From NCBI GenBank assembly GCA_028281325.1, contig JANQKC010000024.1, positions 79,474 through 143,473 of the forward strand: a stretch of DNA of 64,000 nt. Reading direction: 5' to 3'. A program made the translations under genes and the position numbers. The notes beneath the pieces were generated by a model, which worked only from the letters and a program-made list of their open reading frames with translations, did not search any database and had not been told where the DNA came from. This document shows, piece after piece, positions 4,560-47,512 of this stretch. Within the stretch, counting starts at the first letter, position 1, and every line of letters starts with the position of its first letter. Source of the DNA: Alphaproteobacteria bacterium. GTDB taxonomy: Bacteria > Pseudomonadota > Alphaproteobacteria > UBA8366.

Positions 4560-4848
4560 AGTTGATCCGGAATTGGGTGGCGAGGATTTCATGATGGGGA
4601 AAAAGCGAATGAGAGGACAGTCGAATTTATTTGGCGCGCGCATGCGGGACGCCCCGATTACCTGCATCCCATGGCCACAGTTAGATGGTCTCCGGCACGC
4701 TATAATTTCGGCTGGTTGATGGCATTCGACCCAGTGCTTCCGGTGCGGCCATCGATGGCCAATACTCTGTTTACGTGTAAGGCTTTGGGTTTCAACTGGT
4801 TTTGGGCTTCGCTACGGTCACCATCCAAACTCCGCCGGGATTGGTAAA

Positions 4849-5889
4849 TTGAACGAAGAAATAACCGAAACATCACCGACAAGAACATCCAACGACCCGA
4901 TTTGGCCACCGCTGCCAGTCGGTCGAATAGACTGTTACTCTCGCTTGTGGCAACTAGAACTTTGGCTTCGCGAGCTTGTGTATGTGGAACTAAAGTCTCG
5001 ATACGGGGGTCAATGGACGCAGCAGATCGTTGGAGCCAGTATTTATGCCCAAAAGGCTGACAGAAGACTGACACATATGCCAACGCGAGAGCGGAGGCCG
5101 CTAAGTTACATCTCGTTTGATTCCCTGGTCAGGACAATAAGCAGACGTCGGCACCTATTTGCACCTTACCTCCCTATACGTTCGATCTGGGATGCCAAGC
5201 TAGATGAGGTGCGCCAAATCCGGAACCGTGTGGCCCACTTTCGACAGGGAAACGATGGGGATCTTCAGCGCGTCGATCAGCTATTAACTGATATTGACCC
5301 GGGGATTTGGCGCTTTTGCACCTCATACAATGATCATTTCCCAATTCTTCCTCCGAGTCGGGAGAAAGTTATAAAACAATTTATTGAACTGGATCCCTTC
5401 CCGTGGAGTCAGGTAGGTGACGGAGCATGGTCACGTGTCGGTATGGCCAGCCCCGATATGTTGTTAAGTGCGAATATTGAAGTGATTAGGCGACCGTGGC
5501 TTCGAGCGAAGTATCAAGGGCAAGTCGCCGGAAAATACGGATATCTTTTTGATATTAATATTCATGCAAGACAAAACAGGGTTTTCGAATATAAGAATTT
5601 TCTCAAAAACACTACTCATATTCACGATAGATGCTGCCATATTTTGCTCGATTCGTTCGGTACGACGATACGTGCGACATTGCCCTCCGTTTTGGGTGCT
5701 GCACAGATAACGGACACTGTTAACACGCTTATTGAGATGGGTAGGAGTGCGCTTAGACCGTCTCAAACTTTGCTGGAGATAAATAGGGTCGATTCATTAG
5801 CTAAAGACTGGCCCGAGTATGTCCTAGGTCCGGACCACCCGTTCTCTTTTCTCGGCCCAGATATGCCGTGCAAAATTTTCAGCATCTAA
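4849..5889 (+). CDS. HEPN-domain protein (Swt1-like, R-x4-H motif RNRVAH at 5221..5238) with an uncharacterised C-terminal half
   Basis: 346-aa ORF in the low-GC island with TTG start. It carries the canonical HEPN RNase motif R-N-R-V-A-H-F. The start codon is uncertain. Confidence 0.5.
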   Translation: MNEEITETSPTRTSNDPIWPPLPVGRIDCYSRLWQLELWLRELVYVELKSRYGGQWTQQIVGASIYAQKADRRLTHMPTRERRPLSYISFDSLVRTISRRRHLFAPYLPIRSIWDAKLDEVRQIRNRVAHFRQGNDGDLQRVDQLLTDIDPGIWRFCTSYNDHFPILPPSREKVIKQFIELDPFPWSQVGDGAWSRVGMASPDMLLSANIEVIRRPWLRAKYQGQVAGKYGYLFDINIHARQNRVFEYKNFLKNTTHIHDRCCHILLDSFGTTIRATLPSVLGAAQITDTVNTLIEMGRSALRPSQTLLEINRVDSLAKDWPEYVLGPDHPFSFLGPDMPCKIFSI

Positions 5890-6079
5890 GTGAATGCCGA
5901 TGTAATGATCAGCAGGCCGTTTTGGTGCTATTTCACTATGAAAAAATTGAATGCTGTAGCTGACCGAAAATTACGATGTCTTTGATAGTTGTTAGGACAA
6001 AGAAATTGTCTATTTGCAATAAGTTAAGGGTTGAGATGCAGTGTCATCCTGACTTGTATTGACCCGTAGATTCGACTGC

Positions 6080-6559
6080 TCACCTTAGGCCTGCCGCGTC
6101 CAACTGTCGTAGCAACAACGATGCGAGTGCTAGATGATCCAAGCAAGTGTCCGGATCGTCCGTCATTCCACTCGTATGCCCTCTCGGGTTTCGGATGCCC
6201 AGCATTGCGCCTGCGAACAAGAACTTGAAACCCTCTTGTTCATCCTTTTCAGACCTTGTCATCCCTGGATTTAGTGACACTTTTGGCGAACTTCCTCCGA
6301 GGGCGCTCATCATCAACTTGGTACCGTGGCTCGATGCTCCGGAGATACGCTGTATTTCTTCATCAACAAATTTGAAGGCCTCAAAAGTTGCTTGTGCACA
6401 GTGGCCATTATCAAATAGTCGCCTAACATCGTTCGGAAGGTCTGTATGGAGATTTCGCTCGTCAAAGGAATGTGCACTCGAGGGCCTGTCTACTCCCGCT
6501 TCAGTAAAGCGGTGCGCATTTCTTGCGATTCTTTCGAAGTCTTCGAAGTTACTCGCCAT
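6080..6559 (-). CDS. Hypoth_Ymh/TIGR02391-like HEPN protein (R-x4-H motif RNPRGH at 6176..6193)
   Basis: 159-aa ORF with the AMLGIRNPRGH motif. It overlaps the upstream gene by 11 nt, so they form an operon. Low GC. Confidence 0.5.
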   Translation of the reverse strand: MASNFEDFERIARNAHRFTEAGVDRPSSAHSFDERNLHTDLPNDVRRLFDNGHCAQATFEAFKFVDEEIQRISGASSHGTKLMMSALGGSSPKVSLNPGMTRSEKDEQEGFKFLFAGAMLGIRNPRGHTSGMTDDPDTCLDHLALASLLLRQLDAAGLR

Positions 6560-7226
6560 CGATTAGGTTTTTTCGAATACTTCGGAAGATCCTGTCATAT
6601 GTTTTTTGATCACCATCAGCCGGTAGGTTGACCTCTATACGAACAGTAAGTCCCACTCGGTGTTCTGGTTTCTCGGTTGTGCCAGTCGTATCTTTCTTTG
6701 ACTTCACAGATGCTGTGACCCGTTTCTTAGAGGATCTATCCGCACCCTTTTTCGATACCGGCCTGCGCTGATTGGTCTCTCGTGTTATTGGTACTTCCGC
6801 GTGACCTGAAAGTGCAGCGAGGTAGGTGAAAGTCCCAGCCTGTCTGGTTCCAACAATCTCGCTCGAATGATCTGAAGTGCGGAAGAACTGAGCTAAACTC
6901 GATCGATCCATATTCCACGCGTCGTCACCATGTAATTCAAATAGTTCCTCGTAAGCGGTCCGCACAATTTTCTCGAACTCTTTCTGAAACTCCTCGTCCT
7001 TGTGTTGAATGAAAGCGTTCGCGCATTCATCAACCTTCCTGCCTTCCTCATCAACAATGCCGAGGAATTTCAGCACATTGATGACGTAGCTTTCATTCTT
7101 CGGTGCCACGCCAAGCTTGCGAAGGGTTTCAGCTGTCACCTCTTGGGGAAAACTTCGACGCCGAAGGTGGTCGATCGTCTTTACCAGAGGGCCTGCGGAA
7201 GCTACGTACGGATACTTGTTTGCCAT
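6549..7226 (-). CDS. DUF5343-like protein, upstream partner of the HEPN gene
   Basis: N-terminus MANKYPYVASAGPLVKTI...FPQEVTAETLRKLG resembles DUF5343 from memory. The C-terminal half is a Lys/Ser/Thr-rich low-complexity tail. Confidence 0.45.
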   Translation of the reverse strand: MANKYPYVASAGPLVKTIDHLRRRSFPQEVTAETLRKLGVAPKNESYVINVLKFLGIVDEEGRKVDECANAFIQHKDEEFQKEFEKIVRTAYEELFELHGDDAWNMDRSSLAQFFRTSDHSSEIVGTRQAGTFTYLAALSGHAEVPITRETNQRRPVSKKGADRSSKKRVTASVKSKKDTTGTTEKPEHRVGLTVRIEVNLPADGDQKTYDRIFRSIRKNLIDGE

Positions 7227-7619
7227 TATACGCTTCGCCTCTATCTAGCACCCATGCTTCGTGTGTTTAGGCAGCCGAACATAGGTAGTATTGTAACATT
7301 ATAAGATTTACTCTCTTTTTGATTGCATAACTCAATTTTAGGCAGAGTGACAAATCCAATCTACTATTTTTAATGTGTAATCAAAGCTCTATGGACGATA
7401 CGGAAAATTAGTGTTGACGATCAGCATATTTGAATCGATAGAAATCTAATAATTACAATATGTTAATAGTAATTCTTAGTTGTATATTTGCTTATTTATC
7501 GGTCGACCTAGCAGATTTTGAAATCGCATTCTCCGAGATTCTCTGCACTATTTGCAGCGACACCGAATCACTAGAACGCTAAATTTCGCACAACAATAGA
7601 CACTTCTGGGTGGGGAAGA

Positions 7620-32920: not shown

Positions 32921-32994
32921 TCTGGATGGGAGGACTCGAACCTCCAACAGCTGAGTTAAAAGCTCAGAACTCTAACCAATTGAGCTACATCATG
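32921..32994 (-). tRNA. tRNA-Lys(UUU)-like sequence with a defective acceptor stem (possible pseudo-tRNA)
   Basis: T arm GGAGG-TTCGAGT-CCTCC, anticodon arm CTGAG-CTTTTAA-CTCAG and D arm GCTC...GAGT are all present. Acceptor pairs 2-71 and 3-70 mismatch. The 5' end overlaps the CCA of the adjacent tRNA-Met. Confidence 0.4.
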
Positions 32995-33067
32995 GAGCCG
33001 ATGACGGGAGTCGAACCCGCGGCCTGCGGATTATGATCCGCCGCTCTACCATCTGAGCTACATCGGC
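32993..33067 (-). tRNA. tRNA-Met(CAT), elongator-like
   Basis: Reads GCCGATG-TA-GCTC-AGATGGTA-GAGC ... GCGGG-TTCGACT-CCCGT-CATCGGC-T-CCA, with a perfect acceptor stem. By my reading the anticodon loop is 6 nt (TCATAA) rather than 7. Confidence 0.6.
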
Positions 33068-35352: not shown

Positions 35353-36261
35353 TCATAGTCGGGCCTGCAGCCGCGCGACGATGGCCACTGCGGTTTCGGA
35401 AACCGTGCGGACGAATTGCTCGGCGGTCCGGGTCGGTCGGGCATCCTTCGGTGACAGGACGCCGTAGGGGATGGAGACGGCGGGGTCGACCCGGCGGATT
35501 GTCAATTGGTCCGGCGGAAAAAGGTCGAGAATGAAGGGATCGGCGAGCGTCGCGCCAAGCCCTTTGGTGACCAGCTGACAGGCGGAAAAGACGTTCGACG
35601 TCTCGGTCTGAATCAGCGGCGGTTTTGCTTGCGACGCAAAAAAGGCATCGAACCGCTGCCGCATCGGACGGCCGCGCGTCAGCCGAATGAACGGCGCTTC
35701 GGCCAGGTCTTTGGCGCGCAGCGGGGATTGGTGCTTCAGAGCGGAATTCGGCGGCAGGGCCGCCAGCAACGGCACCTCGATGAGCGGCTTCACCGAGATC
35801 ATCGGATGGTCCATCGGGAGAGGCGCGAACCCGAGGTCGAACTGATGACCCGCGATCCAGTCCGCGAGGTCGTCGCGGGACCGGATTTCCAAGGCGTGCG
35901 CGACGGCGGGGTGTTCCGCTGTGAAGGCCGAGATGGCCTCCGGCATGAGCGTGTAGGCCAGATGCGGTTGCGCCAAAAGGCGCAGCCGTTCGCGGTACGG
36001 CCCGCGAATGTCTTCGGCGACCAGGTCCAAATGGTCCATGCCGCTCAAGATACGCTCGACCTCGCGGTAAAACCGCTTGCCCTCGGCGGTCGGAAAGAGG
36101 CGCTGTCGCCGCCGCGTGAACAGCGGGAACCCCAAATCCGCTTCGAGGTCCGCGATCATGCGGCTGACTTGCGGTTGCGTGCGGCCCATTTGCCGCGCGG
36201 CCGCTGTCACCGTGCGCGATTCCATCACGGTGTGGAAGGCGCGCAACGCCTGTAGTTTCAT
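35353..36261 (-). CDS. LysR-family transcriptional regulator
   Basis: N-terminal HTH (TVTAAARQMGRTQPQVSRMIADLE) plus a LysR substrate-binding domain. Confidence 0.85.
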   Translation of the reverse strand: MKLQALRAFHTVMESRTVTAAARQMGRTQPQVSRMIADLEADLGFPLFTRRRQRLFPTAEGKRFYREVERILSGMDHLDLVAEDIRGPYRERLRLLAQPHLAYTLMPEAISAFTAEHPAVAHALEIRSRDDLADWIAGHQFDLGFAPLPMDHPMISVKPLIEVPLLAALPPNSALKHQSPLRAKDLAEAPFIRLTRGRPMRQRFDAFFASQAKPPLIQTETSNVFSACQLVTKGLGATLADPFILDLFPPDQLTIRRVDPAVSIPYGVLSPKDARPTRTAEQFVRTVSETAVAIVARLQARL

Positions 36262-39502: not shown

Positions 39503-39784
39503 GCAGAGTTCCTTCGGTCGAAAATTAGCGGTTGCAAATGGCAATTCGGAATCACCGCCCTAGTTTTTTTGTCCAGGGGAGGACTATTATGGTCCGGACG
39601 ACTTTCCGATTGCACTGTCTATAAGCATTGGTTCGGTCAATTGCACGGGCGAACCGCTCCGGGCGCAAGGCCATGCGCGCGCATTCCTACAGTTGAGGCG
39701 CGCTGGTTTTGTATTGGCCGCCTCTGCTGCTATAGAGATTCCAATTGAAGCATGAAGCACAACCGACGAGGGAGAGTACCAACG

Positions 39785-40642
39785 ATGCTTAAGAGATTCT
39801 TCGCCGCAATGATCCTGATCTTCGGGTTCGGGTCCGCCGTCGCGGCCGAAACATTCGTCTTTACCGCGATCCCCGATCAGGACGAAACGCGCTTGAAAGA
39901 GCGTTTCGGAAAGATCGCGGACTATCTGTCCAAGGAATTGGATACGACGGTCAAATACGTGCCGGTGAAAAGCTATGCGGCGGCGGTGACGGCCTTCAAG
40001 AACAACCAGGTGCAGCTCGCCTGGTTCGGCGGCCTGTCCGGCGTGCGCGCGCGGGCGTCGGTGCCGGGCTCGGTGGCGATCGCGCAAGGCTATGAAGACC
40101 AGTTCTTCGAAACCTATTTCATCGCGAACGAAAAGGCGGGGCTCTCCCTGACCAAGGAGTTTCCGAAGGAAATTGCCGGCAAGACCTTCACCTTCGGGTC
40201 GAAGGGGTCCACGTCCGGCCGTTTGATGCCCGAGTTCCATATCCGCCGAAACTTCGGCAAGACGCCCGACAAGGTGTTTGAGCGCGTCGGTTTCAGCGGC
40301 GATCACTCGCGCACGATCGCGTTGGTGCAGTCCGGCGCCTATCAGGTCGGCGCGGTGAATTACAAGGTTTGGAAAAAGGAATTGGATGCCGGCAAGATCG
40401 ATCCCAAAAAGGTTTCGATCATCTGGCGGACGCCGCCTTATCCCGACTATCAGTGGAGCATTCGCGGCGACGTGGATCAGAAATTCGGCGCGGGCTTTCA
40501 GAAGAAGGTGACGGACGCCTTATTGAATATGAAGGACCCGGCGCTGCTCGAGTCCTTTCCGCGCAGCAAGTTCATTCCGGCGACCAACGACGACTACAAG
40601 ATGATCGTGGATACCGGAAAGGAAATCGGTCTGATCGACTGA
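39785..40642 (+). CDS. ABC transporter substrate-binding protein, PhnD/SsuA-like (putative selenium oxyanion-binding)
   Basis: Signal peptide and PhnD-like fold; GAGGGAGAG SD. It heads an operon that ends in the selD fusion. Confidence 0.7.
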   Translation: MLKRFFAAMILIFGFGSAVAAETFVFTAIPDQDETRLKERFGKIADYLSKELDTTVKYVPVKSYAAAVTAFKNNQVQLAWFGGLSGVRARASVPGSVAIAQGYEDQFFETYFIANEKAGLSLTKEFPKEIAGKTFTFGSKGSTSGRLMPEFHIRRNFGKTPDKVFERVGFSGDHSRTIALVQSGAYQVGAVNYKVWKKELDAGKIDPKKVSIIWRTPPYPDYQWSIRGDVDQKFGAGFQKKVTDALLNMKDPALLESFPRSKFIPATNDDYKMIVDTGKEIGLID

Positions 40643-41298
40643 TGGCGCTTGTCGACCTCACCCTCGCGTCCGCGGGCTATAACGGCGCGAACGTCCTGCA
40701 CGACGTGTCGTTGTCGATCGAACGGGGCGAGAAGGTCGCACTGGTCGGGCGGAGCGGGGCTGGCAAGTCCACCCTGCTTCGGCTGATCTACGAGCGTATC
40801 GACGGCGAGGCCGCGATGGTTCCGCAGGAACTCGGCCTCGTCCGTGCGCTCACCGTGTTTCACAACATCTATATGGGGCAGCTCAACTGCCACAGCACCT
40901 GGCGCAACGTGATGAACCTCGTGCGCCCGATGCAGCAGGAAGTCGAAAACATTGGCGGCATCGTGAAGACGCTTGGCCTGGAGAACGAGATGTTCTCCGC
41001 TGTCGGCGCGTTGTCCGGCGGACAGCAGCAACGGACGGCCGTGGGCCGGGCCCTGTATCAGCGGGCAGACATTCTGCTCGGCGACGAGCCCGTCTCGGCG
41101 GTGGACGAGCATCAATCCCGGTCAATTCTGGAAAGCATCGCCGACGCGAAACCCACGGTCATTCTGGCGATGCATGACATCGATCTCGCGCTCGCCTATT
41201 CCAACCGCGTCATCGGGTTGGATGCCGGGCGCATCGTGATGGACGAGTCGACCGCCGGCATGAAGGCGTCCGACCTCGACCTTCTCTATCGAGGCTGA
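40642..41298 (+). CDS. ABC transporter ATP-binding protein (PhnC-like)
   Basis: Walker A GRSGAGKST and LSGGQQQR signature. Its start overlaps the SBP stop by 1 nt (TGATG). Confidence 0.8.
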   Translation: MALVDLTLASAGYNGANVLHDVSLSIERGEKVALVGRSGAGKSTLLRLIYERIDGEAAMVPQELGLVRALTVFHNIYMGQLNCHSTWRNVMNLVRPMQQEVENIGGIVKTLGLENEMFSAVGALSGGQQQRTAVGRALYQRADILLGDEPVSAVDEHQSRSILESIADAKPTVILAMHDIDLALAYSNRVIGLDAGRIVMDESTAGMKASDLDLLYRG

Positions 41299-41303
41299 GC
41301 GGC

Positions 41304-42800
41304 ATGCAGGCGGTTTGGCGTTACTCTCCGGCGGTTCGGACCAGCCTGATATTCGTCGGTATCGCCTTTCTCTGCCTGATCTTCGCCGACATTTCGATTT
41401 CGACGGTGAACCCGTGGACCGAGATGGGTCGTTTGCTGCTGGGAGTCGTGACCCCGGACTTCCTGGCCACGGAAAGTCTGGTCAACGCCCTGGTGCAGAC
41501 CGTCGCTTTCGCCATCCTGGGCGTCGTCGTTGGAAATATCGCCGGGTTTTTCCTGGCGCTGATTTTTCATTATCGCGCGGTGCGCGTCGGCTGCGCCTTC
41601 GTGCGCGCGATCCATGAGCTGTTCTGGGCGCTGATCTTTTTGCAGATTTTCGGCCTGTCGCCGATCACCGGCATCCTCGCCATCGGGATTCCCTATGCGG
41701 GGATCATCGCGAAGGTCTATGCCGAGATTTTGGAGGAAGCCGACACCACGCCGCTGAAGGCGGTGCCGCCGGGCAGCACGGCGACCTCCGTCTTTATCTT
41801 CGTGCGGTTGCCGGACGTCTGGGCGCATTTCAAGACTTACTCGCTCTACCGGCTGGAATGCGGCTTGCGGTCGAGCGCGGTGCTCGGGTTCGTCGGCCTG
41901 CCGACGTTGGGCTACTACCTCGAAACGGCGTTCCGCCAAGGCCATTATTCCGAAGTCTCCGCGCTGCTGATCCTGTTCTATATTGTGATCGCGAGCATGC
42001 GGGTGTGGATGCGCCGCAACCTGCTGCCGCTCTATATCCTGGGCGCAATCCTGCTGTTGCCGTGGGGCGGACACGAAATCTACGCGGACAACATCGTCCG
42101 GTTCTTCACCCAGGACATCGTCCCGCAGCCGTTGCGCGACGGCGTGTTCGAGCCGGGCGCGCTGTCCGGGTTCGGCGACTGGCTGTCGGTATTGTTCGTC
42201 GAACAGGCGTTGCCCGGTGCGGTCGACACGCTGCAACTGACGATGATCGCGCTGGTCGCGACCGGCGTCCTGGCGCTGGTCTTTTTTCCGCTGCTGTCGC
42301 CGCTGTTCTTCGGCCGCGGCGGCCGTCTCGGCGGGCATGTGTTTTTGGTGGTCGTGCGATCGACGCCGGAATACATCCTGGCCTATGTCTGCCTGCAGCT
42401 TTGGGGGCCGTCGATGTTGCCCGCGATCATCGCGTTGTCGCTGCACAACGGCGCGATCATCGCGCATCTGATTGGCCGCTACACCGAACATATGAAGGTG
42501 CGGGTCGATGCGCCGCGTGGGCTCAATCTTTACTTTTACGAATCGGTGCCGCGTGTCTATGGGCAGCTCCTGGCGTTCCTTTTCTATCGCTGGGAAGTGA
42601 TTTTACGTGAGACCGCAATTCTCGGCATGTTGGGCATCGCGACGCTCGGCTTCTATGTGGACAGCGCCTTTGCGGATATCCGGCTGGACCGCGCGCTGGT
42701 GCTGATCCTGTTCACGGCGGCGCTGAATATCTGCGTCGATGCGTTGTCGCGGCATATCCGGGCGCGGCTCCGTCTCAAGACGACCATCGAACATGGGTGA
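41304..42800 (+). CDS. ABC transporter permease, duplicated PhnE-like (two permease domains in one 498-aa chain)
   Basis: Two consecutive six-helix PhnE-like halves. Confidence 0.75.
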   Translation: MQAVWRYSPAVRTSLIFVGIAFLCLIFADISISTVNPWTEMGRLLLGVVTPDFLATESLVNALVQTVAFAILGVVVGNIAGFFLALIFHYRAVRVGCAFVRAIHELFWALIFLQIFGLSPITGILAIGIPYAGIIAKVYAEILEEADTTPLKAVPPGSTATSVFIFVRLPDVWAHFKTYSLYRLECGLRSSAVLGFVGLPTLGYYLETAFRQGHYSEVSALLILFYIVIASMRVWMRRNLLPLYILGAILLLPWGGHEIYADNIVRFFTQDIVPQPLRDGVFEPGALSGFGDWLSVLFVEQALPGAVDTLQLTMIALVATGVLALVFFPLLSPLFFGRGGRLGGHVFLVVVRSTPEYILAYVCLQLWGPSMLPAIIALSLHNGAIIAHLIGRYTEHMKVRVDAPRGLNLYFYESVPRVYGQLLAFLFYRWEVILRETAILGMLGIATLGFYVDSAFADIRLDRALVLILFTAALNICVDALSRHIRARLRLKTTIEHG

Positions 42801-45070
42801 TCCTCGTGCAATCGACCACACCGATCCTTAAAGACCTCGTTCTCGTCGGCGGCGGACACAGCCATGTCGGCGTGCTGCGGTCCTTCGGCATGAAGCCGAT
42901 CCCGGGCGTCCGCCTGACGGTCCTCTGCCGCGACGTGGACACGCCCTATTCGGGGATGTTGCCAGGGTTGGTCGCGGGGCATTACACCTTCGAGGAGACC
43001 CATATCGATCTCGGCCCGTTGGCCCGCTTCGCCAAGGCGCGCTTCTACAACGACGATGTGATCGGCATCGACCCGCGTCAGCGGTTGGTGATCTGCAAGG
43101 ACCGCCCGCCGGTCTCCTACGACATGCTGTCGATCAACGTCGGGTCCGCGCCCGCGACCTGGGAGACGCCGGGCGCCGACGGCAACGTAGTGCCGGTCAA
43201 GCCGATCAACCGGTTCGTCGCGCATTGGGAACGCCTGCGCGAACGCATCCTGTTGCGCGAGGACCCGGTGCGGATCGGTATCGTCGGCGGCGGCGCGGGC
43301 GGCGTCGAACTGCTGCTCGCCATCCAGTACCGGTTGAAGAGTCTATTGGCCGGGCAAGGGCGCACCGACGCGCATTTGGAGTATCACCTGATCAGCGAAG
43401 AGTCGGACATCCTGACCACGCATAACCCGCTGGTCCGGTCCAAGTTCCGGCGCATCTTCGCCGAGCGCAGCATCAACTTCCACGCGGATACGCAGGTCGA
43501 GTCCGTGACGCCGGGTAAGGTCCAGGCCGCGAACGGCGACACCATTGCGTTGGACGAAATCCTGTGGGTGACCCGGGCGGGCGCCGCGCCGTGGATCAAG
43601 GAATCCGGACTGGCGGTTGACGAATACGGTTTTATGCAGGTCGGCGACACGCTGCAATCGACCTCGCATCCGGAAATCTTCGGCGCGGGCGATATCGCGG
43701 CGATGGTCAATCATCCGCGCCCGAAAGCGGGCGTCTTCGCGGTGAGGCAAGGGCCGCCACTGACCCGAAACCTGCGGCGTATGCTGGTCGGCAAGTCCGC
43801 GCGGCCGTTCACGCCGCAGCGGGAATGGCTTAGCCTGATCAGTACCGGCGATAAATACGCGGTTGCCTCGCGATCCAAATGGTCGGTCGAGGGCAAGCTG
43901 GTCTGGCGCTGGAAGGACTGGATCGACCAGCGCTTCATGAAGAAGTTCAACGAATTGCCCGAAATGGAGACGGAGGAAAAATCGGACGTGCCGCGCGGCC
44001 TGGCGGGCGACGAGGTGATCAAGGAAATCTCCGCCGTCGCCATGCGCTGCGGCGGCTGTGGCGCGAAGGTGGGTGCCACGGTGTTGCAGCGCGCGCTGTC
44101 GCAGCTAAAGCCGGTGGCGCGCGACGACGTGTTGATCGGCCTGCACGAACCGGACGACGCCGCGGTGGTCGAGGTGCCGCCCGGCAAGGTGATGGTGCAT
44201 TCGGTCGATTCGTTCCGCGCCATCGTCGACGACCCGTATCTGTTCGGCCGCATCGCCGCCAACCACAGCCTCGGCGATATCTATGCGATGGGCGCGGACC
44301 CGCAGACCGCGCTCGCCATCGCCACCGTGCCCTACGGACTGGAGGAGAAGGTGGAGGACGTGTTGTCCCAGATGCTGACCGGCGCGATGGAGGTCTTGCA
44401 GGAATCGAACACCTCGTTGGTCGGCGGTCATACCAGCGAAGGCGCGGAGCTGTCGCTGGGCTTTTCCGTGAACGGCCTGATCGACCGAGAGAAGGTCTTG
44501 CGCAAGGGCGGCATGCAGTCGGGCGACCGGCTGGTGCTGACCAAGGCGATCGGAACCGGCACGCTGTTCGCTGCCGACATGCGGCTGAAGGCGAAAGGCC
44601 AGTGGATCAAGGGGGCGCTCGCCTCGATGCTGCTGTCGAACTACGAGGGCGCGCACTGCCTGTCCGACCACGGCGCAAATGCATGCACCGACGTGACCGG
44701 CTTCGGGTTGTTGGGGCATCTGGTCGAGATGACCAAACCGTCCGGCGTCGACGTGGAACTCGATCTCGGCGCGATCCCGTATCTGGACGGCGCGCGGGAG
44801 ACGGTGGCGGCCGGCATCACCAGCACCTTGCAACCGCAGAACCTGCGGCTCCGCCGCGCCATTTCCAATATCGCAGAGGTCGGCGACGACCCGCGTTTTC
44901 CGTTGATCTTCGATCCGCAGACTGCCGGCGGCTTGCTGGCCAGCGTGCCGCAGGACCGGGCCGAGGATTGCGTCGGCGCGTTGCGCGATCTGGGATATGA
45001 CCGGACGGCGATCATCGGCACCGTGTTGCCCGAGGGCAACCGGTTGGAACCGATTACGGTGCGGGCGTAG
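42797..45070 (+). CDS. selD: Fusion of a pyridine-nucleotide-disulfide oxidoreductase ('N-terminal to SelD' domain) with selenide,water dikinase SelD (Cys-type); the senC equivalent
   Basis: N-terminal LVLVGGGHSHVGVL FAD/NAD fold. The C-terminal half from about 43980 is canonical SelD (AMRCGGCGAK at 44042..44068, with TGC/TGT and no TGA). It overlaps the permease stop by 4 nt (ATGA). Confidence 0.8.
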   Translation: MILVQSTTPILKDLVLVGGGHSHVGVLRSFGMKPIPGVRLTVLCRDVDTPYSGMLPGLVAGHYTFEETHIDLGPLARFAKARFYNDDVIGIDPRQRLVICKDRPPVSYDMLSINVGSAPATWETPGADGNVVPVKPINRFVAHWERLRERILLREDPVRIGIVGGGAGGVELLLAIQYRLKSLLAGQGRTDAHLEYHLISEESDILTTHNPLVRSKFRRIFAERSINFHADTQVESVTPGKVQAANGDTIALDEILWVTRAGAAPWIKESGLAVDEYGFMQVGDTLQSTSHPEIFGAGDIAAMVNHPRPKAGVFAVRQGPPLTRNLRRMLVGKSARPFTPQREWLSLISTGDKYAVASRSKWSVEGKLVWRWKDWIDQRFMKKFNELPEMETEEKSDVPRGLAGDEVIKEISAVAMRCGGCGAKVGATVLQRALSQLKPVARDDVLIGLHEPDDAAVVEVPPGKVMVHSVDSFRAIVDDPYLFGRIAANHSLGDIYAMGADPQTALAIATVPYGLEEKVEDVLSQMLTGAMEVLQESNTSLVGGHTSEGAELSLGFSVNGLIDREKVLRKGGMQSGDRLVLTKAIGTGTLFAADMRLKAKGQWIKGALASMLLSNYEGAHCLSDHGANACTDVTGFGLLGHLVEMTKPSGVDVELDLGAIPYLDGARETVAAGITSTLQPQNLRLRRAISNIAEVGDDPRFPLIFDPQTAGGLLASVPQDRAEDCVGALRDLGYDRTAIIGTVLPEGNRLEPITVRA

Positions 45071-45100
45071 GAACCTCGTTCCGTTATTGCCGTTTGTATT

Positions 45101-45212
45101 GACCTCACCCTGAGCGTGTCGAAGGGCCTTCGGAGCGTGGCATGCTTCGACAGGCTCAGCATGAGGGTGGTGCATGCCTAGCTAAGTTATTACCGCGAAA
45201 GCGGGAATCCAG
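45101..45212. repeat. Mosaic palindromic intergenic repeat (REP/RIME-like), copy 2, with B' inverted module, B module (catgcttcgacaggctcagcatgaggg at 45141..45167) and A-type hairpin (ccgcgaaagcggg)
   Basis: Shares modules with 10309..10492. It lies between convergent selD-fusion and senB-like genes. Confidence 0.6.
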
Positions 45213-45218
45213 TATTCG

Positions 45219-46184
45219 CTACCCAAGAATGTGCAACAAATCCCGCCACGCCGCTTCTTCCCGCTCCGGCTTGAACAGGTCGGCGCGCGCGCGGCATTGG
45301 CGCGTTAGCGTCTTCAGGAAATTCCGATCGTGTTCGACCCTGTCCAGGCAGGCCGCCAGGGCGGCGGTGTCGCCGACCGGGAAAAATCCGGCATAGTCGT
45401 CGCCCAGCAGCCCGACCGATCCTGAAATGTCCGATGCGATGACCGGGACGTCCGCGGCGACCGCTTCGGACAGCACGTTCGCGCCGCCCTCCATGATCGA
45501 ACTCAACACCATCGCGTGGGACGAATCGAAAAGCCGGCGTACCTGCCATCCTTGCGCTTCGCCGCGCCAGTCGTATCGGAGATTGGCGGCCATCTCCTGC
45601 CGCGCGCGCTCGGCCCAGTTCCCGTCATGCGCCTTGCCCAGATGCACGATCCGGACCCGCGAATCGCTCGGCAGCAACCGCGCGGCCTCGGCGGCACGCA
45701 ACGGATCCTTCTCGTCGCGTAGATGACCGATCACACAAATATCGACGGTGCGCCGCGACGGGCGGCGGGTCCGGTTGAGCGGCAAGGCCGATTGGTGGAT
45801 GACATGAAGCTTTTCGTGGAACCGATCCGGTATCTCCCGGTGCACGAGGCCGTGCAGGCACACCAGCGCGTCGGCGAGTTCCATGGAGCGATGGGTCTCG
45901 TCCGGATGGCTGCGTTGAAACTTGTAGATGTCGGTTCCCGCCAGCAGGACGATCAGCGGGCGATCGGGGTACCGCTCGTGGAAACGGATGATCGATCCGG
46001 CGCTGCGCCAGGCATGGACGGCGATCATCGCGTCGACCGATTCGTTCTCGTACTCGGTCGCGACGATCACCTCATGACCGAGACGGCGCAGGATATCCTG
46101 CCACCGCACCGCCGTCCTTCTGTTGCCGTCGCGCGACTGTTTGCCTGCGGGCGTGACAAGGCTAATCTTCAAGCCGGTCCGCAT
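45219..46184 (-). CDS. senB: Small glycosyltransferase of the selD-associated family (selenosugar synthase SenB-like)
   Basis: About 320-aa GT-B-like protein (MRTGLKISLVTPAG...). Genomic context is SelD on one side and an EgtB-like gene on the other. The start is uncertain, with a TTG at 46172 possible. Confidence 0.55.
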   Translation of the reverse strand: MRTGLKISLVTPAGKQSRDGNRRTAVRWQDILRRLGHEVIVATEYENESVDAMIAVHAWRSAGSIIRFHERYPDRPLIVLLAGTDIYKFQRSHPDETHRSMELADALVCLHGLVHREIPDRFHEKLHVIHQSALPLNRTRRPSRRTVDICVIGHLRDEKDPLRAAEAARLLPSDSRVRIVHLGKAHDGNWAERARQEMAANLRYDWRGEAQGWQVRRLFDSSHAMVLSSIMEGGANVLSEAVAADVPVIASDISGSVGLLGDDYAGFFPVGDTAALAACLDRVEHDRNFLKTLTRQCRARADLFKPEREEAAWRDLLHILG

Positions 46185-46198
46185 TAGGTGGTTTGCCC

Positions 46199-47512
46199 AT
46201 GACTGAACCCGTCCCCACGTCCCGCTTGATCGACATGATGACGAGCGCGCGCCGCCGCACGCTGGAATTGGTTCAAGGGCTGACGCCGGACCAGTTCATT
46301 GGCCCGAAACTGCCGACGCTTAATCCGTTGATCTGGGAAATCGGGCATGTCGGCTGGTTCTATGAAAATTTCATCTTGCGGCGATTGTACAACCAAGAGC
46401 CGATGCTCGCGACCGGAGATTCGCTTTATGACTCGATCGCAATCGCGCATGAAACGCGGTGGGATTTGCCGGTCCTGCCGTTGAACGAAATCCTTGCCTA
46501 TATGCAGGACGTGCAGGACGCGTTGATCGACCGCTTGGGCGACAAGGATATGGCGGACGAACGGCACAGTTATCTCTACCAGTTCACCGTCTTTCACGAA
46601 GACATGCACACCGAGGCCTTTACCTGGGCGCGGCAGACATTGGGATATCAGACGCCGGTCTTCGAGGGCGGCCCGGTCGATCGCGCTGCGCCGCAGACCG
46701 GGTCATTGTCCGGCGATGTGGCGATCATGGGCGGCACCTTTCGGATGGGTGCGGAGAAGAGCGCGCCGTTTCTGTTCGACAACGAGAAATGGGCGCGTCC
46801 CGTAACCGTCGCACCGTTCAAGATGGCGCGGGCGCCGGTTACCAACCGCGCATTTGCCGAATTTGTCGCGGAGGGCGGTTACCGAACCGAATCCTTCTGG
46901 GACGCCGATGGCTGGGCCTGGCGGCAAGACGCGGTGGTGGAACATCCGGTCTATTGGGTGCCGGACGAGCATGGCGGTTGGGGCGTTCGGCAATTCGATC
47001 GCGTCGTCGACCTGCCGCTCGACCAGCCGGTCATCCACGTCTGCTGGCATGAAGCGAACGCCTACTGCCGCTGGGCGGGCCGGCGCTTGCCGACGGAAGC
47101 GGAATGGGAGTTGGCGGCGACGACGGTGCCGGAAACCACCGACGGCGTTTTGCAGAAGCGCCGGTATCCGTGGGGCGACGAGGCGCCGACGCCGGACCGT
47201 GCCAATCTCGATGGGTTCGCGCTTGGCTGCGTCGATGTCGCGGCATATCCGGCGGGCGACAGCGCCTATGGCTGCCGTCAGATGATCGGCAATGTCTGGG
47301 AATGGACGCAGGACGTCTTCAAGCCGTTTCCGGGTTTCGCGCCCGACGATTACAAGGAATACTCCCAGCCGCTGTTCGATACGACACGGGTCTTGCGGGG
47401 CGGTGCGTGGACGACGCGGGGGCGGATGATCACGTCCCTTTATCGCAACTATTTCGGGCCGGACCGGCGCGACGTTTTCGCCGGGTTCCGGACCTGCGCG
47501 TTGTCCGACTAA
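46199..47512 (+). CDS. senA: EgtB-like C-Se/C-S bond-forming enzyme (DinB_2 N-terminal domain plus FGE-sulfatase domain); selenoneine synthase SenA-like
   Basis: WEIGHVGWFYENFIL and FHEDMHTEAF (DinB_2 His triad), then GGTFRMG, TEAEWELAA, GNVWEWT and RGGAW (FGE-sulfatase fold). AGGTGG SD sits 8 nt before ATG 46199. Confidence 0.65.
   Translation: MTEPVPTSRLIDMMTSARRRTLELVQGLTPDQFIGPKLPTLNPLIWEIGHVGWFYENFILRRLYNQEPMLATGDSLYDSIAIAHETRWDLPVLPLNEILAYMQDVQDALIDRLGDKDMADERHSYLYQFTVFHEDMHTEAFTWARQTLGYQTPVFEGGPVDRAAPQTGSLSGDVAIMGGTFRMGAEKSAPFLFDNEKWARPVTVAPFKMARAPVTNRAFAEFVAEGGYRTESFWDADGWAWRQDAVVEHPVYWVPDEHGGWGVRQFDRVVDLPLDQPVIHVCWHEANAYCRWAGRRLPTEAEWELAATTVPETTDGVLQKRRYPWGDEAPTPDRANLDGFALGCVDVAAYPAGDSAYGCRQMIGNVWEWTQDVFKPFPGFAPDDYKEYSQPLFDTTRVLRGGAWTTRGRMITSLYRNYFGPDRRDVFAGFRTCALSD

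What the first reader, a model, noticed from the sequence alone, without database searches (positions are those of the whole stretch)
39785..45070. Four-gene operon coupling a PhnDCE-type ABC importer to a SelD fusion protein: candidate selenium uptake-activation module
The SBP, ATPase, double-PhnE permease and the oxidoreductase::SelD fusion are co-directional. They have a 1-nt overlap (40642), a 5-nt gap and a 4-nt overlap (42797..42800). Phosphonate-type ABC systems linked to selD have been flagged in comparative genomics as putative selenate/selenite importers but remain uncharacterised biochemically. The N-terminal FAD/NAD(P) oxidoreductase domain fused to SelD could be the reductase that delivers selenide. 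The whole cassette then feeds the senB/senA genes immediately downstream.
Basis: partly seen in the sequence, partly recalled or inferred. Interest (0 to 1): 0.7.

Follow-up and report, generated by a model that had tools for sequence, protein, structure and literature searches.

The report
Selenium uptake-activation operon beside selenoneine genes
This is a real four-gene operon (a PhnDCE-type ABC importer plus a reductase::SelD fusion) beside the selenoneine genes senB and senA; the layout is widespread and already annotated, but relatives of its binding protein are known only as phosphite and phosphate binders and have never been tested with selenium.

Summary
They encode a binding protein (TIGR04553, "putative selenate ABC transporter"), an ATPase, a double-PhnE permease, and an NDH-2-like flavoprotein fused to an intact SelD carrying the CxxC motif. 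senB (minus strand) and senA follow.

The layout is not new. It recurs in at least 14 complete loci from other species. Of 44 loci with full flanks, 35 have SelD, SenA/B or MnmH within 10 kb. Kayrouz et al. (2022) noted this transporter next to sen clusters, and Zhang et al. (2008) proposed that the fused domain reduces selenium.

The new point concerns the binding protein. Picocyanobacterial PhnD1 proteins (PDB 7S6G, 5LQ5) fall in the same NCBIfam family and share every ligand-contacting residue. They bind phosphite at 0.05-4 µM and phosphate at 7-180 µM, yet their hosts cannot use phosphite. No selenium compound appears in the text of either PhnD1 study.

Best reading: a selenite (not selenate) importer feeding reduction, selenophosphate synthesis and selenoneine. 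The substrate remains unproven.

The parts
39709..39736 (+). Possible promoter: TTGTAT, a 16-nt spacer, then an extended -10 (TGcTATAGA)
   Evidence: Read by eye. The blocks are conserved in the relatives L001 and L002. The consensus scan did not call it, so this is inference only.
39785..40642 (+). Periplasmic substrate-binding protein, 285 aa. Signal peptide ends ...SAVA|AE. Pocket residues: D31, Y64, F108, S142-T143-S144, H174, N192, D221, Y222.
   Evidence: TIGR04553 388.8 bits (cut-off 250); Pfam Phosphonate-bd 1.8e-62. 45% identical to 7S6G and 41% to 5LQ5, with all ligand residues shared. The start codon is supported.
40642..41298 (+). ABC ATPase, 218 aa, PhnC-like
   Evidence: PF00005 3.4e-23. 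TIGR02315 PhnC scores 163 bits, below its 266-bit cut-off. 1-nt overlap with the binding-protein gene.
41304..42800 (+). Fused double PhnE-type permease, 498 aa
   Evidence: TIGR01097 PhnE matched in 2 stretches, 208 bits against a 216.7-bit cut-off. 5-nt gap after the ATPase gene.
42797..45070 (+). NDH-2-like flavoprotein::SelD fusion, 757 aa, GTG start
   Evidence: TIGR03169 498 bits (cut-off 310); TIGR00476 selD 300.8 bits (cut-off 125); TIGR04369 'fusion_not_SelD' 478 bits, below its 700-bit cut-off. GTGA overlap with the permease gene.
42833..43948 (+). N-terminal FAD/NAD(P)H oxidoreductase domain (residues 13-384). Two GxGxxG motifs: GGGHSH and GGGAGG. W/K-rich C-terminal helix at residues 366-385.
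   Evidence: Pfam Pyr_redox_2. The AF2 N-domain has pLDDT 75-93. Foldseek best matches are type II NADH dehydrogenases (TM 0.83, about 390 columns), then sulfide:quinone reductases (TM 0.72).
44042..44959 (+). SelD domain (residues 416-721)
   Evidence: Aligned to E. coli SelD 3U0O. The Cys17 and Lys20 equivalents are C421 and K424. The DDAAV, VDSF, GDIYAMG and TDVTGFGL motifs are kept.
44048..44059 (+). CxxC motif (C418-G-G-C421) in the SelD glycine-rich loop
   Evidence: Read from the translation. Invariant in 33 fusion proteins. Reported as the hallmark of Ndh-SelD fusions in PMC2398784.
45071..45218 (.). Convergent intergenic spacer that folds into a long hairpin; a possible bidirectional terminator or REP-like insert
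   Evidence: Minimum free energy -55.6 kcal/mol, z = -3.1. Most other genomes have only 2-57 bp here.
45219..46184 (-). senB, selenosugar synthase
   Evidence: TIGR04348 414.2 bits (cut-off 300).
46193..47512 (+). senA, selenoneine synthase. TTG at 46193 or ATG at 46199.
   Evidence: NF041186 486.3 bits (cut-off 420); DinB_2 + FGE-sulfatase domains.

Best explanation
The four genes form one operon that takes up a selenium oxyanion and converts it into selenophosphate. The adjacent senB and senA genes then use selenophosphate to make selenoneine.

1. A secreted PhnD1-type binding protein captures the oxyanion, most likely selenite as HSeO3-. This is inferred.
2. The PhnC-like ATPase and the fused double PhnE permease import it. 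This rests on homology.
3. The NDH-2-like flavoprotein half of the fusion uses NAD(P)H to reduce the selenium. The selenium is probably held as a selenotrisulfide or perselenide on the C418/C421 loop. This is inferred and matches the 2008 hypothesis of Zhang et al.
4. The SelD half makes selenophosphate. Its catalytic Cys, Lys and Asp residues are all present, so the homology is strong.
5. SenB makes a selenosugar, and SenA couples it to hercynine. This pathway was shown for orthologues by Kayrouz et al.
For: **Gene order and family membership**
- Gene order and junctions were verified.
- The binding protein, N-terminal domain, SelD, SenB and SenA all exceed their curated NCBIfam cut-offs.

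**Selenium linkage of the transporter family**
- Of 44 genome loci with at least 5 kb on both sides, 34 have SelD and/or SenA/B within 10 kb. Adding MnmH raises this to 35.
- The linkage occurs in three separate layouts:
  - transporter > Ndh::SelD > <senB senA>: 14 complete loci;
  - transporter directly followed by <senB senA>;
  - selD-mnmH immediately upstream of the binding protein. MnmH was confirmed at 519.9 bits (cut-off 361) in L020; 11 loci carry it.
- Linkage to both selenoneine and selenouridine genes points to a general selenium supply role.

**Active sites**
- The SelD active site is intact, and the CxxC motif is invariant.
- The N-domain has the fold of a type II NADH dehydrogenase.

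**Pocket chemistry**
- In the relatives 5LQ5 and 7S6G a tyrosine cap admits only a very small fourth substituent. An Asp carboxylate accepts a hydrogen bond from a protonated ligand oxygen (PMC5700983).
- These residues are identical here and in all or 79 of the 80 related loci.
- This geometry fits pyramidal HSeO3-. That step is my inference from general chemistry.

**Literature**
- Kayrouz et al. note a putative selenate transporter beside many sen clusters (bioRxiv 10.1101/2022.04.13.486033).
Against: - There is no direct evidence that any member of this family binds or transports selenium.
- The only biochemistry on the family shows phosphite (0.05-4 µM), phosphate (7-180 µM) and methylphosphonate binding (PMC10284923 Table 1; PMC5700983 Table 1). 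The pocket here is the same.
- In Synechococcus CC9311 the orthologous transporter has no selD within 10 kb.
- Nine of the 44 full-flank loci show no selenium gene nearby (after adding MnmH).
- No promoter or terminator call supports or delimits the operon.
- The AF2 model gives no usable geometry between the two domains (pTM 0.49; the SelD half has pLDDT below 50). Coupling between reductase and SelD is therefore not shown.
- No egtD (hercynine supply) was found among the window ORFs tested.
Confidence: 0.6

Rival explanations
1. The transporter is physiologically a phosphite or medium-affinity phosphate importer, as proposed for picocyanobacterial PhnD1C1E1. On this reading its position next to selD and sen genes has no bearing on substrate.
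For: - Members of the same NCBIfam family bind phosphite at 0.05-4 µM and phosphate at 7-180 µM (PMC10284923, PMC5700983).
- All ligand-contacting residues are identical here.
- The TIGR01098 phosphate/phosphite/phosphonate subfamily model is also passed (162.5 bits against a 112-bit cut-off).
Against: - 35 of 44 loci carry selenium genes, in three unrelated layouts.
- No ptxD, phnY/Z or C-P lyase matches were seen among neighbouring genes.
- The cyanobacterial hosts cannot grow on phosphite, and their genes are not induced by phosphorus starvation (PMC10284923).
- Position G141 is invariant in all 80 proteobacterial loci, but is Ser in 7S6G and Asn in 5LQ5.
Confidence: 0.22
2. The substrate is selenate, as the NCBI product name says.
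For: The name of TIGR04553 and its use by Kayrouz et al.. From general knowledge, selenate is a major dissolved selenium form in oxic seawater.
Against: - The capped pocket disfavours a fourth oxygen. Phosphate binds roughly 10- to 3500-fold more weakly than phosphite in 7S6G and 5LQ5 relatives (PMC10284923, PMC5700983).
- The ligand-contacting Asp needs a protonated ligand oxygen. Selenate lacks one at neutral pH (inference).
Confidence: 0.1
3. The N-terminal NDH-2-like domain is not a selenium reductase. It might instead tether SelD to the membrane, pass electrons to or from quinone, or handle selenide or sulfide in the manner of a sulfide:quinone reductase.
For: - The whole NDH-2 fold is matched, including its C-terminal region (about 390 columns, TM 0.83). 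Sulfide:quinone reductases come next.
- A W/K-rich helix at residues 366-385 resembles a membrane anchor (read by eye).
- TIGR03169 is annotated only as an oxidoreductase family protein.
Against: - The fusion always carries the extra Cys that makes the CxxC motif (PMC2398784), which suggests redox coupling to the SelD loop.
- The fusion is conserved at 66-80% identity across classes.
Confidence: 0.3

Closest known systems
sen biosynthetic gene cluster (senA/senB/senC) with co-located 'putative selenate transporter' (Kayrouz et al. 2022)
   Same: SenA, SenB and a SelD (SenC role) lie adjacent, and a TIGR04553 transporter sits next to them, as the authors noted for a subset of clusters.
   Different: Here SenC is the 757-aa Ndh::SelD fusion. 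It is transcribed with the transporter, while senB is inverted and head-to-head with senA. No egtD was found in the ORFs tested.
Picocyanobacterial PhnD1C1E1 transporter (Prochlorococcus MIT9301 PhnD, PDB 5LQ5/5LQ8; Synechococcus MITS9220 PhnD1, PDB 7S6G)
   Same: Same NCBIfam family. The binding protein is 41-45% identical, with identical ligand residues (Tyr, S-T-S, His, Asp, Tyr cap, Phe90 equivalent). The permease is also a double PhnE of about 500 aa.
   Different: The cyanobacterial operon is flanked by tesA and an aminotransferase, not by selD. The ATPase and permease are only 27-30% identical. Second-shell residue 141 is Gly here but Ser or Asn there.
Ndh-SelD fusion proteins (Zhang et al. 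2008; Mariotti et al. 2015)
   Same: An N-terminal COG1252/NDH-2-like domain, a Cys-type SelD and a CxxC motif. These fusions are abundant in marine bacteria.
   Different: None of substance; this is a typical member.
PtxABC phosphite transporter (PtxB, PDB 5O2J/5JVB/5LV1)
   Same: Same fold, with the S-T-S, His and Tyr-cap ligand residues.
   Different: PtxB has Tyr where this protein has F108, and Gln where it has D221 (PMC5700983). No ptxD is nearby. Sequence similarity is only about 100 bits.

Membership tests
TIGR04553 putative selenate ABC transporter substrate-binding protein | Whole-protein score at or above the curated cut-off (250 bits) | tested here: met
   388.8 bits
TIGR04553 putative selenate ABC transporter substrate-binding protein | Genomic association with selenium-donor (SelD) pathways | tested here: met
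   Adjacent to Ndh::SelD in the window. 35 of 44 related loci with full flanks carry SelD, SenA/B or MnmH.
TIGR04553 putative selenate ABC transporter substrate-binding protein | Binds or transports a selenium oxyanion | not testable with these tools
   No report was found in the searched library: 'selen' occurs 0 times in the main text of PMC10284923 and PMC5700983, and the selenite + phnD search returned only irrelevant papers.
PhnD1-type phosphite/phosphate-binding proteins (5LQ5, 7S6G) | Pocket residues Tyr46, Ser-Thr-Ser 126-128, His158, Asp205, Tyr206 cap, Phe90, Asp13, Asn176 (5LQ5 numbering) | tested here: met
   Y64, S142-T143-S144, H174, D221, Y222, F108, D31 and N192 are all present.
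PhnD1-type phosphite/phosphate-binding proteins (5LQ5, 7S6G) | Conserved tesA (GDSL lipase) neighbour | tested here: not met
   tesA is present in CC9311. In the window the downstream gene is Ndh::SelD.
PhnD phosphonate-binding protein (TIGR03431) / C-P lyase system | Score at or above 261.1 bits, with phosphonate catabolism genes nearby | tested here: not met
   130.5 bits. No phn catabolic genes among the neighbours.
PtxB phosphite-binding protein | Tyr100-type pocket without the Asp ligand, and an adjacent ptxD | tested here: not met
   F108 and D221 occupy the positions of Tyr and Gln. No ptxD was found.
SelD selenide, water dikinase (TIGR00476) | Score at or above 125 bits; catalytic Cys/Sec17 and Lys20; ATP/Mg-binding Asp residues | tested here: met
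   300.8 bits. C421, K424 and the DDAAV, VDSF, GDIYAMG and TDVTGFGL motifs align to 3U0O.
Ndh-SelD fusion (TIGR03169 N-terminal domain) | N-terminal domain at or above 310 bits, fused to SelD, with a CxxC motif in the SelD loop | tested here: met
   498.1 bits. C418-x-x-C421 is invariant in 33 homologues.
TIGR04369 oxidoreductase/SelD-related fusion (not SelD) | Score at or above 700 bits | tested here: not met
   478.3 bits
Type II NADH:quinone oxidoreductase (NDH-2) | Fold with two dinucleotide-binding domains plus a C-terminal membrane-anchor domain | tested here: met
   Foldseek TM 0.83 to 4NWZ, 5KMP and 9A63 over about 390 columns. The N-domain has pLDDT 75-93.
Type II NADH:quinone oxidoreductase (NDH-2) | NADH:quinone activity and a quinone-binding site | not testable with these tools
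   Only 17-23% identity. The quinone-site residues were not assessed rigorously.
sen selenoneine gene cluster | SenA (NF041186, at or above 420 bits), SenB (TIGR04348, at or above 300 bits) and a SelD co-located | tested here: met
   486.3 and 414.2 bits, with SelD 148 bp from senB.
sen selenoneine gene cluster | Hercynine supply (egtD) in or near the cluster; only a subset of clusters have it | tested here: not met
   No EgtD match among 29 window ORFs scanned against NCBIfam. The scan was not exhaustive.

The most novel reading that the evidence does not exclude
The whole TIGR04553/PhnD1 family may be the long-sought high-affinity bacterial selenite importer. That would include the PhnD1C1E1 transporter found in all 97 picocyanobacterial genomes surveyed in PMC10284923, whose tight phosphite binding has been a puzzle because the hosts cannot use phosphite. 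On this reading, phosphite binding is molecular mimicry of pyramidal HSeO3-. The fused NDH-2-like::SelD enzyme would sit at the membrane and reduce and activate the imported selenium directly.
Probability: 0.35. Interest if true: 0.75.

Novelty: already known. Interest (0 to 1): 0.4.

Why it matters
A 2022 review states that no high-affinity selenium transport system has been identified in prokaryotes (PMC9312934). This operon family is the best genomic candidate. It is abundant in marine Alpha- and Gammaproteobacteria, and more than 8000 close homologues each were found for the binding protein and for the fusion.

The link made here is to the structurally solved picocyanobacterial PhnD1 proteins. 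The physiological substrate of PhnD1 is openly described as unknown or paradoxical. That link makes the question cheap to test: titrate selenite against proteins that have already been expressed and crystallised. A positive result would change how the PhnD1C1E1 genes of the picocyanobacteria are read in ocean phosphorus and selenium budgets.

Tried and rejected
- **Promoter and terminator scan**. No sigma-70 match, and terminator-like sites were at chance level. It says nothing for or against the operon.
- **Rfam scan of the whole window**. Only two tRNAs were found, and no riboswitch lies upstream of the operon.
- **AlphaFold2 model of the fusion**. The aim was to see whether the CxxC loop docks on the flavin site. 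The SelD half had pLDDT below 50 and pTM was 0.49, so the inter-domain geometry was discarded. Only the N-domain fold was used.
- **Cyanobacterial context**. I looked for selD next to phnD1 in Synechococcus CC9311 and found none within 10 kb. The selenium reading for cyanobacterial PhnD1 therefore has no support from gene neighbourhood.
- **Literature searches**. Nothing was found on biochemical characterisation of the transporter with selenium, or of the Ndh::SelD fusion.
- **TIGR04369 'fusion_not_SelD'.** Considered and rejected: the score is below the cut-off and the catalytic Cys and Lys are present.
- **E. coli-type PhnD and PtxB.** Considered and rejected on score, pocket residues and gene context.
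- **The LysR gene at 35353..36261 as a selenium regulator.** It scores only 99.8 bits against the selenium-associated LysR model (cut-off 250), so it was not accepted.


Full report
**1. Observation**

The ORF list and the sequence at each junction confirm the finding exactly.
- The binding-protein gene runs 39785..40642.
- The ATPase gene starts at 40642, with its ATG sharing one base with the preceding TGA. It ends at 41298.
- After 5 nt the permease gene runs 41304..42800.
- The 757-codon fusion gene starts with the GTG at 42797, inside a GTGA overlap, and ends at 45070.

The longer binding-protein ORF from 39752 is unlikely to be real. In the close relative L002 that codon is ACG. The ATG at 39785 is preceded by a conserved GGGAGAG.

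The window is about 64% G+C. The nearest public genome is an uncultured alphaproteobacterial MAG, OZ245815.1. Its binding protein is 95% identical, and its locus has the same six-gene layout.

**2. What the genes are**

Pfam and NCBIfam scans give the following:

| Gene | Best family match | Score vs curated cut-off |
|---|---|---|
| Binding protein | TIGR04553, 'putative selenate ABC transporter substrate-binding protein' | 388.8 vs 250 |
| ATPase | PhnC-like (TIGR02315) | 163 vs 266 (below) |
| Permease | PhnE (TIGR01097), two stretches | 208 vs 216.7 (below) |
| Fusion, N-terminal domain | TIGR03169, 'Nterm_to_SelD' | 498 vs 310 |
| Fusion, SelD domain | TIGR00476, selD | 300.8 vs 125 |
| Fusion, whole protein | TIGR04369, 'fusion_not_SelD' look-alike | 478 vs 700 (below) |

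Alignment to E. coli SelD (3U0O) shows the catalytic Cys17 and Lys20 equivalents (C421, K424) and the Asp-containing motifs. C418 adds the CxxC motif that Zhang et al. reported as universal in Ndh-SelD fusions (PMC2398784).

The N-terminal domain has two GxGxxG motifs. Its AlphaFold model (pLDDT 75-93 for this half) matches type II NADH dehydrogenases at TM 0.83 over about 390 columns. Sulfide:quinone reductases come next at TM 0.72.

Downstream lie two sen genes:
- senB, 45219..46184 on the minus strand (TIGR04348, 414 vs 300 bits);
- senA, 46193..47512 on the plus strand (NF041186, 486 vs 420 bits).

The other neighbours are unrelated to selenium: CoA-ester metabolism genes, a sulfatase and a LysR regulator.

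**3. Conservation and linkage**

A genome-collection scan with an alignment of the binding protein returned 80 loci. They come from Alpha- and Gammaproteobacteria, plus one from Nitrospinaceae. I searched them with the window's proteins.

Among the 44 loci with at least 5 kb on both sides:

| Layout near the transporter | Loci |
|---|---|
| Ndh::SelD plus senB and senA | 14 |
| Ndh::SelD only | 7 |
| Plain SelD upstream | 6 |
| Ndh::SelD plus senB | 2 |
| senB and senA without SelD | 2 |
| senB only | 2 |
| N-terminal domain plus senB and senA | 1 |
| No SelD, SenA or SenB | 9 |
| No transporter genes and no selenium genes | 1 |

In the plain-SelD loci the gene between selD and the binding protein is mnmH, the tRNA 2-selenouridine synthase. 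It scores 519.9 bits against a 361-bit cut-off in L020. mnmH sits directly upstream of the binding protein in 11 loci. One of these had been counted as unlinked, which brings the total to 35 of 44.

A single-copy gene found in roughly a quarter to a third of genomes would land in a 20-kb window far less than once in 44 loci by chance. This is my estimate, using the SelD frequencies given in PMC4561486 and in the Haft preprint. The loci are not phylogenetically independent. However, the three distinct architectures make a functional tie to selenophosphate pathways in general the simplest reading.

**4. What was already known**

- The Ndh-SelD fusion and its CxxC motif were described in 2008. 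[quoted passage not shown]
- Mariotti et al. found this to be the commonest SelD fusion (PMC4561486).
- Kayrouz et al., who discovered the sen pathway, wrote that a putative selenate transporter gene lies close to many sen clusters (bioRxiv 10.1101/2022.04.13.486033).
- NCBI's annotation pipeline already names these proteins accordingly.

The module is therefore a known bioinformatic prediction, not a discovery.

**5.

The closest solved structures to the binding protein are two picocyanobacterial PhnD1 proteins:
- Synechococcus MITS9220 PhnD1 (7S6G, 45% identity);
- Prochlorococcus MIT9301 PhnD (5LQ5, 41% identity).

Both score above the TIGR04553 cut-off, at 334 and 297 bits. NCBI calls the Synechococcus CC9311 orthologue a putative selenate-binding protein.

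These proteins have been characterised. They bind phosphite at 0.05-4 µM, phosphate at 7-180 µM and methylphosphonate at 17-109 µM (PMC10284923 Table 1; PMC5700983 Table 1).

Both papers stress a paradox. The hosts cannot grow on phosphite, the genes are not induced by phosphorus starvation, and the in vivo function 'is unknown'. The string 'selen' does not occur in the main text of either paper. As far as those texts show, selenium oxyanions were not tested.

Every ligand-contacting residue of the two structures is present in the window protein, and in all (or 79) of the 80 related loci. These are the Tyr, the Ser-Thr-Ser motif, the His, the Asp, the capping Tyr, its Asp and Asn partners, and the Phe that replaces the Tyr of PtxB. 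The one consistent second-shell difference is G141. It is invariant in the 80 loci but is Ser in 7S6G and Asn in 5LQ5.

**6. Mechanistic reading**

In 5LQ5 the tyrosine cap packs against the P-H of phosphite and excludes larger fourth substituents. The Asp carboxylate implies that a mono-protonated ligand is bound (PMC5700983).

Selenite is a pyramidal XO3 species with a lone pair where phosphite has H. From general chemistry, its second pKa is near 8, so HSeO3- is abundant at seawater pH, whereas phosphite is mostly dianionic there.

I therefore infer that selenite fits this pocket better than tetrahedral, unprotonated selenate. The product name 'selenate' is probably wrong in detail. This is inference, not a result.

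The full NDH-2 fold is matched through its C-terminal region, and a Trp/Lys-rich helix lies at residues 366-385. This suggests the fusion may sit on the inner face of the membrane, close to the importer (also inference). The CxxC loop is the obvious place for a selenotrisulfide or perselenide that the flavin could reduce. The AF2 model was too poor in the SelD half to test this.

**7. Rivals**

- The main rival is that the transporter really carries phosphite or phosphate. It has the only direct biochemistry on its side. It does not explain the selenium-gene linkage or the absence of phosphite-oxidising genes.
- In Synechococcus CC9311 the orthologous operon has no selD within 10 kb. The selenium reading is thus well supported for the proteobacterial clade and open for cyanobacteria.
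- Selenate as the substrate, and a non-reductase role for the N-domain, remain possible.

**8. Verdict**

The value added here has three parts:
- a correction on strand and on substrate chemistry;
- a quantified linkage to selenium genes;
- the bridge to the PhnD1 literature, which turns an annotation into a one-afternoon binding experiment.

Noticed in passing
window 46182..46201 (senB start, minus strand, and senA start, plus strand): senB and senA are head-to-head with only 8-14 nt between their start codons, so each promoter must lie inside the other gene. The same head-to-head layout (12-39 nt between aligned starts) holds in 19 of 20 loci examined, L001 and L002 included; the exception is L073 at 740 nt.
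   Followed up: partly
window 45071..45218: The convergent gap between selD and senB folds into a long hairpin (-55.6 kcal/mol, z = -3.1). L001 and L002 have similar-sized gaps (153-167 bp). Most other genomes have only 2-57 bp here, which suggests a lineage-specific inserted element or a bidirectional terminator.
   Followed up: partly
L020 7703..10804; also L044, L053, L059, L066, L071, L077, L031, L058, L070, L078: In Gammaproteobacteria the same transporter family sits directly downstream of selD-mnmH (selenouridine synthase). In four of these loci Ndh::SelD is also present downstream. This is a second selenium trait linked to the transporter.
   Followed up: yes
window 32921..33067 (minus strand): Two tRNA genes abut with no spacer. 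One is tRNA-Lys(TTT). ARAGORN cannot assign the other; by eye its anticodon loop reads CAT (Met or Ile2 type).
   Followed up: partly
window about 4700..7500: A low-GC islet (0.50-0.53 against 0.64) holds three ORFs: a weak Swt1-like HEPN protein (4849..5889), a Hypoth_Ymh/HEPN-like protein (6080..6559, 2.7e-31) and a DUF5343 protein (6549..7226). It looks like a small acquired defence or toxin-antitoxin-like cassette.
   Followed up: partly
window 35353..36261 (minus strand): This LysR-family regulator, 3.5 kb upstream of the operon, has sub-threshold similarity to the selenium-metabolism-associated LysR model (99.8 bits against a 250-bit cut-off). It is probably unrelated.
   Followed up: no
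window 39545..39784: The 240-bp divergent intergenic region upstream of the operon has several blocks conserved with L001 and L002, for example GGTCNCGGCGACTTTCCGA, TTCGGTCGATTACACGGACGAACC and CTGCTGTTATAGAG. These may be operator or promoter sites. No Rfam family matches the region.
   Followed up: partly
fusion protein residues 44 and 100 (window 42926..42928 and 43094..43096): Both cysteines of the NDH-2-like domain (C44, C100) are invariant in 33 fusion homologues, as is C725. The alignment is shallow (66-81% identity), so the significance is unclear.
   Followed up: no
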